DNA of 61,941 nt, the filler included, from Eubacteriales bacterium (GTDB taxonomy: Bacteria > Bacillota > Clostridia > Oscillospirales > CAG-382), in the NCBI GenBank assembly GCA_045636665.1. It is 6 parts of 6 records of this genome, joined end to end, with 100 filler letters (N's around TTAATTAATTAA, not from the genome) between each part and the next. Parts side by side here need not be neighbours in the genome. Positions count along the whole stretch, not along the records: positions 1 to 19,389 come from JAZTXY010000124.1; 5 more parts are not named here. One strand, 5' to 3'. Made by a program: the position numbers. Below, piece after piece: positions 1-12,000 of the stretch; within the stretch, counting starts at the first letter, position 1; each line of letters begins with the position of its first letter.

Positions 1-3000
1 ATTGCTTCGTCAGTTATCGTTCTTCAGCACCGAAAAAAGCGTTTCATCGGTCTATTTCGGCGGCGGCACACCGCCAATGCTCGGAATCGACAGATTATGT
101 AAACTTTTAGAAGCGGTGAAAAGCAAATTCAAGCTCGAACAGGATTGCGAGATAACGGTTGAGGTCAACCCGAAAACGGTTGATTTTGACGGCTTGGCAA
201 AGCTGCGCGAGGTTGGTTTTAACCGTCTTTCGGTCGGTGTACAATCGGCAAACGACGAAATGCTTCGCAGTATCGGGAGAATCCACAGCTTCGGTGACGC
301 GGTCGATTGCATTAAAAACGCAAAAGCGGTTGGATTTGACAATATAAGCGCAGATATAATCTTTGCACTTCCCTCTTTAACGCTCGATGTATTAAGGGAC
401 AGCGTTATTAAGATTATGTCAACCGATGTTTCGCATATTTCGGCATATTCGTTGCAGCTGGAGGAGGGCACACCGCTTTATAACAGGCGAGAGGATTTGA
501 GCCTTCCGACCGAGGAAGCCGAGGAGGAGCAATATAATTTATTGTGCGACCTTTTAAGCGGAAACGGATTTTCGCATTACGAAATTTCATCGTTTTGCAA
601 GGACGGAAAAAGGTCGCGCCACAACCTTTCCTATTGGAAAAGGGATGAATACTTCGGCTTTGGCGCAAGCGCGCATTCCTTTTACAACAACCGCAGGTTT
701 TCAAACGTTTCGGACGTTAACGAGTATATAAGGCTGACGAATATCGGACTTTTCGCGCCGACCGATTACGATAAGGCGCAACCGATTTCAAGCGACGAAG
801 CGCTTGAGGAATCGATACTTTTGGGGCTTCGCACGTCCGACGGCGCATTGATTCCCGATCGTGCGGTCAAAGCCGCAAAGCAGGTTTCAAATTTAGGCTA
901 CGGCAGCTTTGAAAACGGTATTCTTGCGCTCAATTCAAAGGGCTTTCGCGTTTCGAACGCGATTATCGGCAAAATCATTGAAAGCATTTAATATTAACAA
1001 CTTGAACAGAATCGTTTATCGGTTCTGTTCTTTTTTTATGCACATTTTACAGATTACGTGGGATTTCGGTGAGAAAAACACGGGATGAAATCACGTTTAA
1101 AAAGCTTTACAATAATGTCATCGGATGCGAAAGGAGGCGAAAAATTACGCATGGACGATAGCAAGAACAAAAGCACTGTTTTCGATTCACCCGAGGAATT
1201 GAACCAAGCGATCGAAGAATATTTCGGCGAGCATTTACCGACAAGCGGTGAGATTGCCGATATTGAATCGCTTGCCGATTACTTGGGCACGACAAGGGAC
1301 GAGCTTATTGCGATGATGAACGATAAAAGGGTTGGCTTTACGTTGGGGCTGGCGAGGAACAGAATCGCAAAAATCAAAAAGCAGTTGGCGTTTGGCGGAA
1401 AGATACCTGCGGCGGTTCTTTCGTTTGATTTAAAGAACAACCACGGTTACAAGGACAAGCCCGAGGATACCGACACGACTCCACACGAAAGCGTTGTATT
1501 TAAGGGCAAGACCTCACAATGGGCGCAATAAAGGAAATCCTTATCCAACCAAACGCAAAGCAGAAGCAGTTTTTCGAATCGAAGGCTCGCTATACCGCCT
1601 ACGGAGGAGCACGTGGCGGCGGCAAAAGCTGGGCGATGAGAATGAAGCTGATACTCCTTGCGCTTAATTACGAGGGCATTCAAATACTTCTGCTTCGCCG
1701 TACACTCTCCGAGCTTCGCGAAAACCACCTTCTGCCGATGCTTTCGCTTTTATCGGGCATTGCGAAATATTCGAGCACCGAAAAGGAGTTTCGCTTCCCC
1801 AACGGCTCACGGATAAAGCTTGGGTACTGCGAAAGCGTGAACGACGTGCTTCAGTTTCAGGGACAGGCTTATGAGGTTATCGGTTTGGAGGAAGCCACAC
1901 ACTTCACCGAATTTCAGTTTCTCGCCCTTACCGAAAGCAACCGAGCAAGCGGTTTTATGAAAAAGAAGTTCGTTCCGAGAATGTATTTTACCTGCAACCC
2001 CGGCGGTGTCGGGCACGAATGGGTGAAAAGGCGCTTTATCGACCGTGATTACCGCGGTAACGAAAAGGAAAGCGATTACCTTTTTATTAAAAGTCTGGTG
2101 TTCGACAACGAATACATTATGAAAACCAACCCCGAATACGTCGACACGCTTCTTAACCTTCCCGAAACGCGAAGAAACGCGATGCTTTACGGCGATTGGA
2201 ACGCATTCGAGGGTATGTTTTTCCCCGAATTCGACCCGAAAAAGCATATCGTTTACGGCGATATTCGCATCCCCGACGGCGCGATACGCTTCCGTGCGCT
2301 CGATTACGGACTCGATATGACGGCTTGCTTGTGGTGCGCGGTTGCGCCCGACGGCAAAATCACCGTCTACCGCGAGCTTTACGAAAAGAACCTTTTGCTT
2401 TCCGAGGCGGCGCAAAAAATCATCGCTCTGACCGAAAAGGGCGAAAAAATACGCTATACCGTCGCATCCCCCGACCTTTGGAACCGACGGCAGGAAAGCG
2501 GAAAAAGCGGGTTCGACATTATGTCGGAAAACGGACTAAGGCAAATGATAAAGGCGGATAACAGCCGTATTTCCGGCTGGCGCGTCGTTAGGGAATATTT
2601 GAAATCGGGCGAATTTACCTCTCCGAAGCTCGTTATTTCAAGCAATTGCCAAAACCTTATTCGCTCAATCCCCCTGCTTCGCTTCGACGAGCGCATCCGC
2701 GAGGACGCATCCGATTCGCCTCACGAAATAACCCACGCGCCCGAAGCGCTGCGTTATGCGTTAATGTCGCGTCAGCCGAAAACCGCACCGCAAAAACGAA
2801 ACCGCTATGCGTCGAGCGTTTACACCTTTGACAACGCAAACGACAGCAACGAAAACAGCGATTTCCAAGACTTTATTTCCTATTAGAAAGGAGAATCGAA
2901 TGAAAAGACTTAAGCCCTTTACCGAGGAATGGGAGCTTTATGAAAAGGGCAAGGAGTATAACTACTCGCTTAATCTTTATGAAAAGGTGAACACAAACGA

Positions 3001-9000: not shown

Positions 9001-12000
9001 AGCCGAAGGACCTTGCAAACCTTATGGTTCAAAACGCGACCGGAGGCGATTACATCAAAACCGAACGACACGCCTACCTCGTCAACAAATATCTTCTCGA
9101 GGCGACCGAAAAATACAACCTCTCCGATTCGTATATGCAAGAGCTTGTATTTATGCTCAAGGCATACGGTCTAAAGGAATTGTCCTACTCCGAGCTTCGC
9201 AAAACCGTCATCACCCAAGACGCGCAGGAGCTTTATAACCACTCCTATGAAAAGCGCTATAAGGAATACGTCGAGCGCGGCGCGAAGCCCTTCAGAGCGC
9301 GTACCTACGCAAGAGGACTTGCGGTGACCGATACCTTCGATTACATCTTCTCGCACACCCAAAGCAAGGAGGAATTTTTGGAATACTGCGAGCTTATAAA
9401 GCTCGATTCCGAAGCGGCGAAGAATTACGCGTCGAACAAGGTCTGGAGCAAAAAAACCGACAAATCAAGTCCGCCTAAGCTTCAAAGCGCGACTCGTTTA
9501 ACAAAATAGGAGGCTTTATGGATTTTACCGAATATATCGACCCCGAGCTTTTCGTCACCGTACCGGTGCTTTACCTGCTCGGTGTGATGATTAAAAAAAG
9601 CAGCATCAACGACAAATTCATCCCGTTAATTCTCGGTATCGTCGGTATTCTGCTTGCGCTCAGCTATCAAACGGCATCCCTTTTGCCGTCAACCGCTTCG
9701 GAAATCGCCTCGCTGATATTCGCAAGCGTAACGCAGGGAATACTTTGCGCTTCGTGCAGTGTGTATGCAAACAATTTGTTAAAGCAGCTCGGGAAAGGAA
9801 ACGGAAATGCTTCTTTTAAGGATAGCGAAAAAGGCGATTAAATTCTATGCCGATTGCCTTTACGCCCTGATTTACGAGCCTTAAATGTCCTTTGAACTGT
9901 TAGCCGAGCTTCTGCCGATAATCCTTTCTTCCGCAGGTGTGACGGGATCGCTTTTCGCGGCAATAACGGTATACGCGATAAAAAAGGCGAAAAAGGATGC
10001 CGAACAAAAGCGTGAAGAACGGCTTAAGCTCGAAATATTGCGTCTTGAGGGCGATGAAAAGCTTTCTTCCCTCATATTCGCCCTAATACGCACACTCAAC
10101 GGCAACGGCGACTCTCACGAGCTTGACGAAGCAATCCGCGCATACACCGAGCACATAAATAAATCCAACGCGCTGAAAAATCTTATCATCACAAATCACA
10201 CGGCAAATTAGCCCGATTTTTACTCACCTGCCTTTTAAAAGAATCGGGGGCCTTTTTAGTTATCAAACGGCTTAAAGGTCACCGATTCCTCAAAAGGCGC
10301 AATTAAAAAGCAATTAACTTTTGTCTTGCATTTTTTCAGTTTCCGTGGTATAATTGATAAAATTTCACCTATGGAGGTAAAAAAATGAAAAAATGGTTTA
10401 AATCAACGCTTGCTTTATTGCTTGCTCTCACCATGCTTTTGGGCGTTCTTGCGTCCTGCAACGATGAAAGCACCGATAGCAGCGAAACCGAATCGGGCGC
10501 AGAAAGCTCGGCTTCTTCCGACGAATCCAAGTCCGAAACAAGCAAAGACGACGGCGCCGAGTTTATTAAAGGCGAACCTGTTAACAACCCCGAATATGCT
10601 ACCGTTGTAAGCGTAGGTCGTTCTTACAACTCCACCACCGAATCCAATACTCAATATCCCGATACTTACGGTATCGAGCTTACAGACGGTAAATACGGCC
10701 CTCCCGAAGGCAGTGACTATACCTCCGTTGATTTTAACGGATATTCAGGCTCTACCCCCATTATTTTGTCTATCGACCTCGGCGAACAATTCGATACCCT
10801 TTACGAATTTCGTCTTGGTTATCTTTCGACCAACAATGCAGGCGTAAAGGCACCCACGAAGGTTCGTGTCGGTGCATCGATCGACGGCAAAAAATATTAC
10901 ACCGTAGGCGACCTTGAAATCCCCGAATTTGTTGAAGGCAAGCGCCTTGAAGCAATCCTCAAGACCGAAAATTACGTCAAAGCGCGTTACATCCGCTTCT
11001 CTATCATCAAAGGCGGCTGGCTCTTCCTCGATGAAGCAGAGGTCATCGGTAACGTCGAAAAGGTTGCCGACTCCAGCGAAGTTATTCTTGAAAACCTCAA
11101 AGCGGCTTACGATAAGCTCGGCACCGTTAAATACGAGGGCGGCAAAGAGATCGATATGAACCTGCCTCTTTCGCTCATCAGCCAAAATAAGAGCTATACC
11201 GCTTCCGTTGAACCTGCCGCAGGCTTCCTCGATAAATCCAACTACCTCACCGACGGTCAGATTACCGGTATTCTCAGCGGCGGCAACTGGGTTGGCTATG
11301 ACGGAAACCAAAATCTCGAAATCGTCGTTGACCTCGGCTCCTCGAGAAGCGATATTTCGGACTTCCGTCTTACCTGCTATGCCACCAACACCGTCGGCAA
11401 CGGACTTCCCGTCGCAGTTACCTATTCGGTAAGTGAAGACGGCAAGACATATACCGAGGTCGGCAGAGTTTTCGGCCCCTCCGCAAGACAAAACACCTTT
11501 GATTACGGTCTTTCGCTCGTCAAATGTGCAAGCGGCAGATACGTTAAATTCGCTATAGAATCAACCGACACCGCAAGATATCTTATCGAAGAAGCGGCTG
11601 TTTACAACCGCGCACTCGGTCAGCTCGGTCACGAATCTTACCCCTATCCCACCTTTGACCTTGAACCCAAGGAATGGGATAACCCCTCCTCCAAGGAAAC
11701 CAACCTCGCTCTCGGTCTTCAGCAATGGGTTTACATCCCCGCCGATATCGATGTTGAGCTTAATAACACCACCCCTGCAGATACCACCATCCTTACCAAT
11801 GGCAAGAAGGGCCCCAACACCGATATACATAACGGCTGGTTCTTCAAGATTCACAGCTCCTCTTCTCCTCTTGAAATATTCTTTGACCTTGGCGCAACCA
11901 GCACGGTAAAGAGCGTCAACATTGAATTTATCAACCGCGAAGGCTGGGGCGTATTGCCTCCCGCATCTTACGACGTTTACGTTTCCGATGACGGCATTAA

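What a model noticed while it worked through the whole genome (the two positions that open the first line are those of the whole stretch)
1151..10211. FpGTA-like podovirus-type gene transfer agent operon, vertically inherited across family CAG-382
C124:1151-10211 is an 11-gene, 9-kb phage-derived head/packaging/short-tail/holin operon (TerS, TerL, portal, scaffold, major capsid, 4 virion proteins, holin, TM protein) with no integrase, repressor or replication genes, lying next to hemW. It is a single-copy, syntenic, purifying-selection-bound chromosomal locus in most genera of family CAG-382, i.e. a domesticated gene-transfer-agent-like element rather than a prophage.
Evidence so far: PHROGs hits TerS/TerL/portal/MCP/virion protein/holin. 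Portal found once per genome in 103/163 other CAG-382 genomes, 53/60 of genus, whole genera 10/10,13/13,12/12; identity falls with kinship 96->79->65->58%. Same gene order in 12/12 loci of 8 genera, hemW flank kept in 6. dN/dS 0.03-0.39 vs nearest species; MCP/portal/TerL better conserved than flanking hemW (88/80/78% vs 59%). MCP homologues (27-35% id) in 26/26, 26/26, 5/5, 3/3 sampled genomes of four other Oscillospirales families with TerL-portal-MCP-g01468 order.
(Added by a program. Inside this text positions count along the whole contig: they may not be those of the stretch shown here. "Call 12" and the like, gene names such as g00115 and contig names such as C1 are that model's own, and its searches are not shown. 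The text may have been shortened before it was handed on; [...] marks where a part breaks off. The agent that wrote the report below was given it as the finding of a first reader that could run no searches.)

Follow-up and report, generated by a model that had tools for sequence, protein, structure and literature searches.

The report
Domesticated short-tailed phage particle operon
A gut bacterium carries an inherited, well-preserved set of phage head, DNA-packaging, short-tail and lysis genes with no means to replicate or move, which most likely builds particles like the gene transfer agent recently found in Faecalibacterium, though from a separate lineage.

Summary
Window 1151-10211 (+) is an 11-gene operon: TerS, TerL, P22/SU10-type portal, putative scaffold, HK97-type capsid protein, two small proteins, a P22-gp10-like tail nozzle, a helical 384-aa protein, a holin and a membrane protein. 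It lies just downstream of hemW.

- Portal in 103 of 163 other family genomes.
- Gene order kept in 20 of 20 loci from 8 genera.
- dN/dS of 0.03-0.36.
- Capsid, portal and terminase better conserved than hemW.

No integrase, repressor or replication gene flanks the operon. The gene tree follows host genera.

Calling it a domesticated, vertically inherited, podovirus-derived operon is well supported. "Gene transfer agent" remains an inference, because no particle or packaging data exist.

"FpGTA-like" is only partly right. FpGTA's capsid protein is annotated as N4-gp56 family, and ours does not match that model. A separate N4-gp56-type operon family, seen in E. siraeum and Butyricicoccus, fits the FpGTA I annotation. 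It shares with ours only TerL, portal and nozzle homology. I could not obtain a named Faecalibacterium sequence.

The same operon type occurs in all sampled genomes of five other families. In one of them the terminase sits at a separate locus. No endolysin or fibre locus was found here.

The parts
1004..1030 (+). Terminator-like hairpin ending the upstream hemW-like gene. It sets the operon's left border.
   Evidence: 11-bp stem followed by a T-run. hemW stops at 991.
1151..1531 (+). Small terminase subunit (TerS), 126 aa from the ATG at 1151. The longest ORF starts at 1085.
   Evidence: phrog_606 at 2e-6 and PF16677 GP3_package at 8e-10 covering the whole domain. An SD sits before 1151. No HTH family hit. 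Homologues in 19 of 20 family loci.
1519..2886 (+). Large terminase subunit (TerL), 455 aa.
   Evidence: phrog_979 at 4e-49, PF04466 and PF03237. TIGR01547 (PBSX family) scores 67.5 bits, below its cut-off. It is 62-93% identical across the family and matches N4-type operon TerL at 100% hhalign probability.
2900..4468 (+). Podovirus-type portal protein, 522 aa.
   Evidence: phrog_156 at 4e-34, PF16510 P22_portal and PF23899 SU10_portal. The start is the ATG at 2900. It is 32% identical to the portal of Bacillus podophage Page.
4455..4997 (+). Putative scaffolding protein, 180 aa. The assignment rests on position between portal and capsid gene.
   Evidence: No named family. Weak hhalign match to the 222-aa protein at the same place in N4-type operons (53%, E 1e-4). 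Conserved in 19 of 20 family loci.
5009..5833 (+). Major capsid protein, 274 aa.
   Evidence: phrog_267 'major head protein' at 2e-37. It is the best conserved gene, at 68-100% identity in the family and dN/dS 0.03. There is no TIGR04387 hit.
5856..6218 (+). g6, a 120-aa protein of unknown role and fast-evolving. A head-tail connector part is a guess.
   Evidence: No family hit. Homologues detected in only 3 of 20 family loci.
6227..6256 (+). Strong internal terminator-like hairpin after the capsid gene and g6. It is a likely attenuator separating head from tail genes.
   Evidence: 11-bp stem with 9 GC pairs and a T-run. Phage Page has an annotated terminator right after its capsid gene.
6282..6665 (+). 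g7, a 127-aa conserved protein. It sits where the adaptor sits in FpGTA I, but its function is not shown.
   Evidence: Homologues in 17 of 20 family loci. No hit in PDB sequences or PHROGs with its profile.
6662..8368 (+). Tail nozzle (hub) protein, 568 aa, all-beta.
   Evidence: AlphaFold2 pLDDT 89.8. Foldseek hits: Pa223 tail 9nwi_Y at 3e-19, P22 gp10 8eap_D at 1e-17 (TM 0.70), and the SU10 and T7 gp12 nozzles. It is 29% identical to Page_15 and matches the 563-aa protein of N4-type operons at 99.1% hhalign probability.
8355..9509 (+). g9, a 384-aa helical protein with a long hairpin (2-182) and a helical C-domain. It may be an ejection, needle or fibre-anchor protein. It is among the most variable genes.
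   Evidence: AlphaFold2 pLDDT 81.5. No Foldseek match under E 0.3. The best VIA row is T7 8e4g_a at Z 11.3, within the noise range for helical hairpins. It is 23-73% identical in the family.
9518..9841 (+). Holin, 107 aa.
   Evidence: PF16079 Phage_holin_5_2 at 7e-24 and phrog_1129 at 2e-21. Present in 15 of 20 family loci.
9885..10211 (+). 108-aa protein with one N-terminal hydrophobic helix. It may be a lysis accessory such as an antiholin or spanin-like protein.
   Evidence: Sequence. No family hit. Follows the holin in 13 of 20 family loci. dN/dS 0.06.

Best explanation
The operon is a domesticated remnant of a Page/P22-like short-tailed phage. It is fixed in the chromosome downstream of lepA-hemW, passed on vertically, and kept intact by selection.

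Proposed mechanism. The steps below are inferred unless marked as shown.
1. In a subpopulation of cells the operon is transcribed from a promoter between hemW's terminator and TerS. The hairpin after the capsid gene and g6 tunes the ratio of head to tail gene expression.
2. Capsid protein and scaffold assemble procapsids on the portal.
3. TerS and TerL fill the procapsids by the headful with whatever DNA is at hand, which is mostly host DNA because the element cannot replicate or excise.
4. The nozzle (shown by fold) closes the portal, with g6, g7 and g9 completing a short tail.
5. The holin, the small membrane protein and a lysin encoded elsewhere (or a host autolysin) release the particles.

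The result would be a gene-transfer-agent-like particle, functionally comparable to FpGTA of Faecalibacterium. It comes from a different lineage of the same broad podovirus stock. Whether the particles deliver DNA to recipients is unknown.
For: Gene content. All core head, packaging and nozzle genes are present and intact.

No mobility genes.
- No integrase, repressor or replication Pfam hit among the 31 flank ORFs of three large contigs, which show secDF-lepA-hemW upstream.
- None among 54 ORFs from 18 family loci, mostly downstream of the operon.
- None of the own genome's 4 tyrosine-recombinase matches lies on this contig.

Selection.
- dN/dS is 0.03-0.36 for all 11 genes against the nearest species.
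- TerL+portal+MCP are more conserved than the adjacent hemW in 53 of 55 genome pairs.

Vertical descent.
- The gene order is kept in 20 of 20 loci from 8 genera, and hemW is directly upstream in 10.
- Genera g5, g7, g9 and g10 are each monophyletic with support 100. The tree needs 8 label changes, the minimum possible, matched by 0 of 200 shuffles.
- Mantel r is 0.91 against hemW.
- Portal presence is all-or-none by genus: 10/10, 13/13 and 12/12 against 0/10 and 0/13.

Deeper domestication signals.
- The same capsid type is in every sampled genome of f16 (26/26), f19 (26/26), f17 (12/12), f27 (5/5) and f3 (3/3), but in 0-3 of about 26 in most other families.
- In f16, TerL (56-62% identical) lies on a different contig from portal-MCP-nozzle in 4 of 4 genomes checked. 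An autonomous prophage could not tolerate that.

No full-length phage with this capsid. Close relatives (at least 80% identical) in IMG/VR are 4 contigs of 4-9.7 kb, and one is exactly TerS..TM.

Precedent. FpGTA particles have been shown by electron microscopy, proteomics and ~9 kb packaged DNA (PMC12946183, section 9 and supplementary file 4 read).
Against: - No particle, packaging, expression or transfer data exist for this organism or family. Only small-share DNA runs were listed, none on record as RNA or as a virome.
- No endolysin and no recognisable fibre or receptor-binding gene lies in the operon, and no second locus was found. The genome is only 80% complete.
- Capsid size, and so the headful, is unknown. 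Phages with the nearest capsid proteins (~30% identity) have 22-59 kb genomes. A head too small for the element's own genes is therefore not shown.
- g6, g7 and g9 have no assigned function.
- The element is missing from 60 of 163 family genomes, so it is dispensable.
- hemW is linked to the operon, so the Mantel test does not exclude transfer of the whole region.
Confidence: 0.55

Rival explanations
1. The operon makes phage-like particles that serve another purpose than gene delivery. Possibilities are PBSX-like killing particles, programmed lysis with DNA release, or decoys. DNA may be packaged but is not injected into recipients.
For: - There is selection for intact particle and lysis genes but no recognisable receptor-binding fibre.
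- The FpGTA authors themselves leave this option open for FpGTA (PMC12946183 discussion passages).
- TerL has a sub-threshold match to the PBSX terminase family.
Against: - A podovirus nozzle without a contractile sheath gives no known killing mechanism.
- Terminase and portal are among the best-conserved genes, after the capsid protein. That argues that DNA packaging itself is selected.
- Versions in f17 carry fibre and baseplate genes.
Confidence: 0.2
2. It is a decaying prophage remnant with no present function, kept only by chance or by one co-opted gene.
For: - The element is absent from 60 of 163 family genomes.
- Some matches carry in-frame stops, for example G050 with 3 TGA.
- There is no endolysin and there are no fibres.
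Against: - All 11 genes have dN/dS of 0.36 or less.
- The order and reading frames are kept in 20 of 20 loci across 8 genera.
- The structural genes are more conserved than hemW in 53 of 55 pairs.
- The capsid type is universal in five further families.
Confidence: 0.07
3. It is a capsid-forming phage satellite or a helper-dependent element that still moves between cells with the help of a phage, which supplies the missing fibres and lysin.
For: - The size is about 9 kb and it has its own TerS, TerL, portal and capsid genes, as in capsid-forming PICIs.
- The lack of fibre and endolysin genes would fit borrowing from a helper.
- A 9.6-kb fecal virome scaffold (MT836592.1) carries a related operon.
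Against: - No integrase, replication or regulatory module was found.
- The position is fixed next to hemW in 10 of 20 loci, and the tree follows host genera.
- It has its own tail nozzle.
- The f16 version is split over two loci.
Confidence: 0.08
4. It is a true member (orthologue) of the FpGTA family that has merely diverged strongly.
For: - The gene order is the same: TerS-TerL-portal-scaffold-MCP-small proteins-nozzle.
- The nozzle matches the same PDB entry (8eap) that the FpGTA paper cites.
- TerL, portal and nozzle are homologous to those of N4-gp56-type operons.
Against: - The capsid protein fails the N4-gp56 model that names the FpGTA capsid protein.
- hhalign between the two capsid types gives only 8% probability.
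- There is no Prp-like gene.
- Both operon types occur side by side in genome G094.
- Phage Page combines our portal and nozzle type with the N4-type capsid, so the lineages probably split among phages, before domestication.
Confidence: 0.1

Closest known systems
FpGTA of Faecalibacterium prausnitzii (operons I and II; Nat Commun 2026, PMC12946183)
   Same:
- The order TerS-TerL-portal-scaffold-capsid-small proteins-nozzle.
- A P22-gp10-like nozzle matching PDB 8eap.
- No integrase or replication genes.
- Near-universal within its host group.
   Different: - The FpGTA capsid protein is annotated as N4-gp56 family and a Prp-like protein follows its portal. Ours has neither.
- The FpGTA holin, endolysin and fibres lie in a second operon. 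Here the holin is in the main operon, and no fibre or endolysin locus was found.
- Particles are shown for FpGTA and not here.
- No direct sequence comparison was possible.
N4-gp56-capsid operons of [Eubacterium] siraeum DSM 15702, Butyricicoccus pullicaecorum DSM 23266 and many Oscillospirales MAGs. They are uncharacterised and fit the FpGTA I annotation pattern.
   Same: - TerL, portal and the ~565-aa nozzle are homologous at hhalign 100, 99.5 and 99.1%.
- The gene order is the same.
   Different: - The capsid protein has 324-426 aa and scores 289 bits on TIGR04387 in E. siraeum. Ours has 274 aa and no hit.
- Those operons have an extra Prp-like gene.
- TerL is only 29-31% identical and the portal about 20%.
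- Distribution is patchy in most families, 56 of 401 genomes.
Bacillus megaterium podophages Page, Pony, Pookie, Palmer and Pascal (Pagevirus, ~40 kb)
   Same: - The portal is 32% identical (E 1e-68) and the nozzle-like virion protein Page_15 is 29% identical.
- The order TerS-TerL-portal-scaffold-capsid-small genes is the same, with a terminator after the capsid gene.
   Different: - These are complete lytic phages of about 40 kb with further tail, tail-spike and other genes.
- Their capsid protein is of the N4-gp56 type.
RcGTA-type gene transfer agents of Alphaproteobacteria
   Same: - A domesticated head, packaging and tail cluster that is vertically inherited and under purifying selection, with no replication or integration genes.
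- Accessory genes can lie at other loci, as with the f16 split seen here. This comparison rests on established knowledge of RcGTA and on reviews cited in the preprint read.
   Different: - RcGTA is siphovirus-derived with a long tail and an unrelated gene set, and lives in Gram-negative hosts.
- Its packaging and transfer have been shown experimentally.

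Membership tests
FpGTA (Faecalibacterium GTA, PMC12946183) | A main operon of about 10 ORFs: TerS, TerL, portal, scaffold, capsid protein and conserved phage-like proteins. | tested here: met
   11 ORFs in that order. The paper's description was read.
FpGTA (Faecalibacterium GTA, PMC12946183) | Capsid protein of the N4-gp56 family, as RCH50849.1 is annotated. 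| tested here: not met
   No TIGR04387 hit at E <= 1 for the window's capsid protein. hhalign against N4-type capsids gives 8% probability, E 0.004. The annotation of RCH50849.1 is.
FpGTA (Faecalibacterium GTA, PMC12946183) | A Prp-like protein (RCH50850.1) between portal and capsid gene. | tested here: not met
   The 180-aa ORF has no Prp hit in NCBIfam or Pfam. The E. siraeum operon does have a weak one at E 7e-4.
FpGTA (Faecalibacterium GTA, PMC12946183) | A P22-gp10-like tail nozzle (RCH50846.1, PDB 8eap). | tested here: met
   The g8 model matches 8eap_D at E 1e-17, TM 0.70.
FpGTA (Faecalibacterium GTA, PMC12946183) | A second operon with fibre, receptor-binding protein, holin and endolysin. 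| tested here: inconclusive
   The holin is in the main operon. No Gp10_C or fibre-repeat family was found in the own genome, but the controls were silent. The lysin candidates do not co-vary with the portal. The genome is 80% complete.
FpGTA (Faecalibacterium GTA, PMC12946183) | Sequence homology to the FpGTA I proteins themselves. | not tested
   No named Faecalibacterium sequence could be obtained.
FpGTA (Faecalibacterium GTA, PMC12946183) | Tail-less or short-tailed particles of about 40 nm holding ~8.5-9 kb of random host DNA. | not testable with these tools
   This needs particle purification or VLP long reads. The run search gave only small-share DNA runs.
Gene transfer agent (general definition) | A phage-derived structural cluster without replication, integration or excision genes. 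| tested here: met
   The flanks are host genes (secDF, lepA, hemW, DUF4855 surface protein).
Gene transfer agent (general definition) | Vertical inheritance with purifying selection. | tested here: met
Gene transfer agent (general definition) | Particles package random host DNA in pieces too small to carry the element, and deliver it to recipients. | not testable with these tools
   No data. The capsid size is unknown.
Capsid-forming phage satellite (cf-PICI-like) | An integrase, a replication module and a regulatory module, with mobility between hosts. | tested here: not met
   No such Pfam hits in the flanks. No tyrosine recombinase on the contig. The tree follows host genera. Serine recombinases were not searched for genome-wide.
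Intact Pagevirus-like prophage | A full genome of about 40 kb with further tail genes beside the head module. | tested here: not met
   Only 9 kb of phage-like genes lie between host genes.

The most novel reading that the evidence does not exclude
This operon type is a second, ancient gene-transfer-agent lineage of the order. It is distinct from the FpGTA / N4-gp56 lineage.
- It is fixed in every sampled genome of at least five families (f16, f19, f17, f27, f3) and in most genera of the window's family.
- It has been remodelled in host-specific ways: terminase moved to another locus in f16, lysis genes inserted between portal and capsid gene in f19, and a LexA-like regulator plus fibre and baseplate genes in f17.
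- It could be the unidentified source of GTA-type packaging reported for gut Clostridia in which no FpGTA homologue was found.
Probability: 0.3. Interest if true: 0.8.

Novelty: new variant of a known kind. Interest (0 to 1): 0.62.

Why it matters
Gene transfer agents were long known almost only from Alphaproteobacteria. FpGTA (2026) was the first reported from a human gut commensal and the first with a short tail.

If this separate operon lineage also makes DNA-carrying particles, then domesticated podoviruses are a common, inherited route of gene exchange in several families of uncultured gut Clostridia, not a peculiarity of Faecalibacterium.

It would also give concrete candidate genes for the GTA-type packaging seen in viromes of taxa where no FpGTA homologue was found. 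The finding supplies a testable gene list, and the f16 split locus is a natural experiment on how such elements are taken apart and kept.

Tried and rejected
1. Getting a named Faecalibacterium FpGTA sequence failed.
It proved to be Butyricicoccus.
- Three cluster look-ups named E. siraeum and only unnamed or vaguely named MAGs.
- A profile search returned 7999 N4-gp56 capsids, of which 120 were listed and only 2 of those carried names.
- The Atlas gave taxa only at phylum level.

2. Endolysin hunt in the own genome.
- The GH25 gene is in only 30 of 163 family genomes and does not track the portal.
- The Amidase_3-SH3 gene is a core gene, in 153 of 163.
- A 696-aa Amidase_2 protein partly parallels the portal by genus, but it also occurs in portal-less genomes, and most of its out-of-genus matches cover only the Amidase_2 domain. 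This is inconclusive.

3. The fibre and baseplate families PF21939 and PF22337 were not found in the own genome, but nothing rang in the controls either.

4. A PHROG scan of 41 ORFs in the rest of the window found no second locus. The one 'tail fiber' hit is a plain GDSL lipase next to host genes.

5. Sequencing runs: 8 rows, all with small shares (0.05-0.07). No RNA holder was listed and none was laid.

6. g9 fold: no Foldseek match under E 0.3. The VIA top row is a T7 chain at Z 11.3, tied with unrelated coiled coils.

7. g7 profile: nothing in PDB sequences or PHROGs.

9. I considered and rejected reading the downstream DUF4855/F5_F8 1031-aa gene as a receptor-binding protein. It neighbours the operon in only 2 of the 20 family loci (a partial, opposite-strand match lies about 3.5 kb downstream in L221), and it stays in place when the operon is inverted in L205.

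Full report
**What is there.**

Window positions 1-19389 are one contig (C124) of an 80%-complete, 139-contig genome. On the + strand, a hemW-like radical-SAM gene cut by the contig start is followed by a terminator at 1004-1030. Eleven tightly packed ORFs then run from 1151 to 10211.

Family searches name six of the eleven:
- TerS: phrog_606 and PF16677.
- TerL: phrog_979 at 4e-49, PF04466 and PF03237.
- Portal: phrog_156, PF16510 P22_portal and PF23899 SU10_portal.
- Major capsid protein: phrog_267 at 2e-37.
- g8, a 568-aa 'virion structural protein': phrog_3287.
- Holin: PF16079 at 7e-24.

The 180-aa ORF between portal and capsid gene, g6, g7, g9 and the last 108-aa membrane protein have no informative hit.

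Two starts are refined. The portal begins at the ATG at 2900, so it does not overlap TerL. A strong hairpin terminator at 6227-6256 separates the capsid gene and g6 from the tail genes. The downstream gene (10385-13480) is a DUF4855/F5_F8/Ig-like surface protein of the host.

**The tail.**

An AlphaFold2 model of g8, built on 25 homologues, has pLDDT 89.8. Its Foldseek matches are podovirus tail nozzles:
- Pa223, 9nwi_Y, E 3e-19.
- P22 gp10, 8eap_D, E 1e-17, TM 0.70.
- The SU10 and T7 gp12 nozzles.

8eap is the very entry the FpGTA authors cite for their nozzle.

g9 (pLDDT 81.5) is a long helical hairpin plus a helical domain. It has no significant structural match. The best VIA row is a T7 chain at Z 11.3, which lies inside the noise range the tool gives for helical hairpins.

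The portal is 32% identical to those of the ~40-kb Bacillus megaterium podophages Page, Pony and their relatives. g8 is 29% identical to Page_15. Page has the same gene order, including a terminator after the capsid gene. 'Podovirus-type' is therefore well supported.

**Domestication.**

- The portal is in 103 of 163 other genomes of the family, and in 51 of 81 high-quality genomes when G000's family set is counted.
- It is in 53/60 genomes of the genus.
- Presence is all-or-none by genus: 10/10, 13/13, 12/12, 4/4 and 2/2 against 0/10, 0/13, 0/6 and 0/3.
- Identity falls with kinship.

In 20 loci fetched from 8 genera the order TerS-TerL-portal-scaffold-MCP-(g6)-g7-g8-g9-holin-TM is kept in all 20, two of which are cut by contig ends. 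hemW is directly upstream in 10. In L205 the operon is inverted in place between hemW and the DUF4855 gene.

The flanks on three large contigs are secDF-lepA-hemW upstream and varied host genes downstream. No integrase, repressor or replication domain appears among 31 plus 54 ORFs scanned, nearly all of them flanking. The own genome's four tyrosine-recombinase matches are all on other contigs.

Against the nearest species, dN/dS is 0.03 for MCP and at most 0.36 for g9, across all 11 genes.

A TerL+portal+MCP tree recovers genera g5, g7, g9 and g10 as clades with support 100. It needs only the minimum of 8 label changes, which 0 of 200 shuffles match. g1 is paraphyletic to g9 with weak support.

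Pairwise identity of the three proteins tracks that of hemW: Mantel r 0.91, reached by 0 of 5000 permutations, over 11 genomes. It exceeds hemW identity in 53 of 55 pairs. hemW is linked to the operon, so this test does not exclude transfer of the whole region.

IMG/VR holds only four short contigs (4-9.7 kb) with a close capsid relative. One of them is exactly TerS..TM. No full-length phage with this module at high identity turned up.

**Beyond the family.**

The capsid type is found in 136 of 401 sampled genomes of the order. It is in every sampled genome of f16 (26/26), f19 (26/26), f17 (12/12), f27 (5/5) and f3 (3/3). It is in 0-3 of about 26 in most other large families.

TerL-portal-MCP are colinear in 11 of 20 loci fetched from 16 other families.

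In f16, the family with the nearest portal (~50% identical), TerL is 56-62% identical to ours. It lies on a different contig from portal-MCP-nozzle in 4 of 4 genomes checked. A split like that is expected of a domesticated element and is hard to square with a mobile prophage.

Other families' versions carry what this one lacks:
- f19 (L064) has a holin and an M23-SLH peptidase between portal and capsid gene.
- f17 (L067) has a LexA-like S24 protein upstream, and a fibre-repeat protein, a Gp10_C baseplate protein and an M23-LysM peptidase downstream.
- f16 (L062) has an Amidase_2 next to the portal.
- None of the 50 flank ORFs scanned has an integrase domain.

**Relation to FpGTA.**

FpGTA is described in one paper in the library, found with the search term 'FpGTA'. 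I read section 9, discussion passages and supplementary files 4 and 6.

FpGTA I is a 10.5-kb, ten-ORF operon. Its capsid protein RCH50849.1 is annotated 'N4-gp56 family'. A Prp-like protein lies between portal and capsid gene. Its adaptor and nozzle are assigned by PDB 7sp4 and 8eap. It also has a TolA-annotated abundant particle protein. FpGTA II holds fibres, a receptor-binding protein, a holin and an M15 endolysin.

Our capsid protein has no hit to the N4-gp56 model TIGR04387, even at E 1, and no Prp-like gene is present.

Searching TIGR04387 in the order found 56 of 401 genomes. Their loci share a second operon type: TerL-portal-110 aa-222 aa-MCP-99-124-563 aa-...-330 aa. This type occurs in [Eubacterium] siraeum DSM 15702 and Butyricicoccus pullicaecorum DSM 23266.

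In E. siraeum:
- The ORF after the portal has a weak Prp match (E 7e-4).
- The capsid protein scores 289 bits on TIGR04387.
- A holin ends the cluster.

This pattern fits the published FpGTA I annotation. That FpGTA belongs to this type is my inference, not a sequence result.

Profile comparison of the two types gives:
- TerL 100%.
- Portal 99.5%.
- Nozzle 99.1% (E 8e-19).
- Capsid proteins only 8% (E 0.004, colinear over about 200 columns).
- Nothing for the small proteins.

Phage Page combines our portal and nozzle type with an N4-type capsid protein. Genome G094 of the window's own family holds both operon types.

So the element is a sister lineage from the same podovirus stock, not an FpGTA orthologue. 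I could not obtain a named Faecalibacterium sequence, so the direct test remains open.

**What is missing.**

There are no particle, packaging or expression data (one search listed only small-share DNA runs).

No endolysin or fibre gene lies in the operon or just downstream of it in the 18 family loci checked. The own-genome candidates are:
- A GH25 gene that is sporadic and uncorrelated with the portal, in 30 of 163 genomes.
- An Amidase_3-SH3 gene that is a core gene, in 153 of 163. It lies a few kb from the operon in genus g7.
- A 696-aa Amidase_2 protein whose genus pattern partly parallels the portal's, but mostly through domain-level matches.

The rest of the window holds no second locus.

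One lead from print: table SD4 of the FpGTA paper lists f__CAG-382 among families whose VLP long reads show a read-length trend, with FDR 4e-6 and all spline coefficients negative, as for Ruminococcaceae. The main text does not discuss that family.

A July 2026 preprint, of which I read passages, reports further GTA candidates in mouse-gut Coprocola and Butyricicoccaceae. It does not mention this family in those passages.

Literature searches:
- 'gene transfer agent' plus 'Oscillospirales' matched two papers, one of which was listed, the July 2026 preprint.
- 'gene transfer agent' plus 'Faecalibacterium' matched 12 papers, 11 of them listed, of which only the FpGTA paper is relevant by title and abstract.
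- 'GTA-like' plus 'podovirus' plus 'Firmicutes' gave none.

**Verdict.**

That this is a domesticated, vertically inherited, selected podovirus-derived operon I hold at about 0.85. That it makes DNA-filled, GTA-like particles I hold at about 0.55. That it is an FpGTA orthologue I hold at about 0.1.

It is a new variant of a known kind. It would be of real interest to people working on gene transfer agents and gut viromes, but it rests on comparative genomics alone.

Noticed in passing
L178 5091-17488 (G340 = [Eubacterium] siraeum DSM 15702); L093 4915-15581 (G475 = Butyricicoccus pullicaecorum DSM 23266): A second conserved operon type with an N4-gp56 capsid protein: TerS-TerL-portal-Prp-like-222 aa-MCP-99-124-563 aa nozzle-like-...-330 aa, ending in a holin in E. 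siraeum. It fits the published FpGTA I annotation. It is in 56 of 401 sampled genomes of the order, and in 4/4, 2/2 and 2/2 genomes of three small families.
   Followed up: partly
G410:C7 / C36, G231:C15 / C16, G268:C13 / C2, G434:C34 / C23 (loci L234-L237, L061, L062): In family f16 the terminase large subunit (56-62% identical to the window's) lies on a different contig from the portal-capsid-nozzle cluster in 4 of 4 genomes checked. No TerS was seen beside it by tblastn.
   Followed up: partly
L205 (G026:C1) 4803-15053: The whole operon is inverted in place relative to the window, between the same neighbours (hemW on one side, DUF4855 and esterase genes on the other).
   Followed up: no
window 1-14724 against L202: Synonymous divergence from the nearest species is mosaic. 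dS is 0.02-0.35 from hemW to g7, but 0.49-0.70 from the nozzle gene through the DUF4855 gene. This suggests recombination that replaced the tail and lysis end of the region.
   Followed up: no
G094 (genus g7): C155 and C34 (L189): One genome of the window's own family carries both operon types, the window's type on C155 and the N4-gp56 type on an 11.9-kb contig. G081 (genus g6) has an N4-type capsid gene but no portal of the window's type.
   Followed up: partly
L222 (MT836592.1, 9588 bp, 'Bacteriophage sp.', human fecal virome); L239 (IMG/VR UViG, 9150 bp): Public 'viral' records of about 9-9.6 kb consist of this operon type alone. MT836592.1 has TerL at 51%, portal 32%, MCP 27% and nozzle 25% identity. 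L239 spans exactly TerS to the TM gene.
   Followed up: partly
L210 (G056:C19) 11522-18371: This copy is stretched. About 2.7 kb lie between TerS and TerL, and extra DNA lies between TerL, portal, scaffold and capsid genes. These may be insertions (mobile genes or introns) inside an otherwise intact operon.
   Followed up: no
L064 7753-8807 (f19); L067 4472-5137 and 12898-17074 (f17); L062 12522-15181 (f16): Versions in other families carry lysis and tail genes that this one lacks. f19 has a holin and M23-SLH peptidase between portal and capsid gene. f17 has a LexA-like S24 protein, a fibre-repeat protein, a Gp10_C baseplate protein and an M23-LysM peptidase. f16 has an Amidase_2 and a 650-aa beta-roll protein next to the portal.
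   Followed up: partly
Genus g7 genomes, e.g. G094:C155:7980-8747, G087:C52:12492-13259: In genus g7 the family's core Amidase_3-SH3 autolysin gene lies about 4-5 kb from the portal on the TerS side, so the operon's upstream neighbourhood appears to differ there from the hemW context.
   Followed up: no
window 18542-18928 (-): A 128-aa ORF matches PF05635 (23S rRNA-intervening-sequence protein) at E 9e-20. A homologue lies near the operon in L207 as well.
   Followed up: no
window 19390-61941: The window beyond 19389 is made of other sequence joined by runs of N. A PHROG scan of 41 of its ORFs gave only matches with host-like descriptions (ABC transporter, sigma factor, FolD-like enzyme, HTH regulators, a GDSL lipase) or unnamed PHROGs, and no phage structural genes.
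   Followed up: partly
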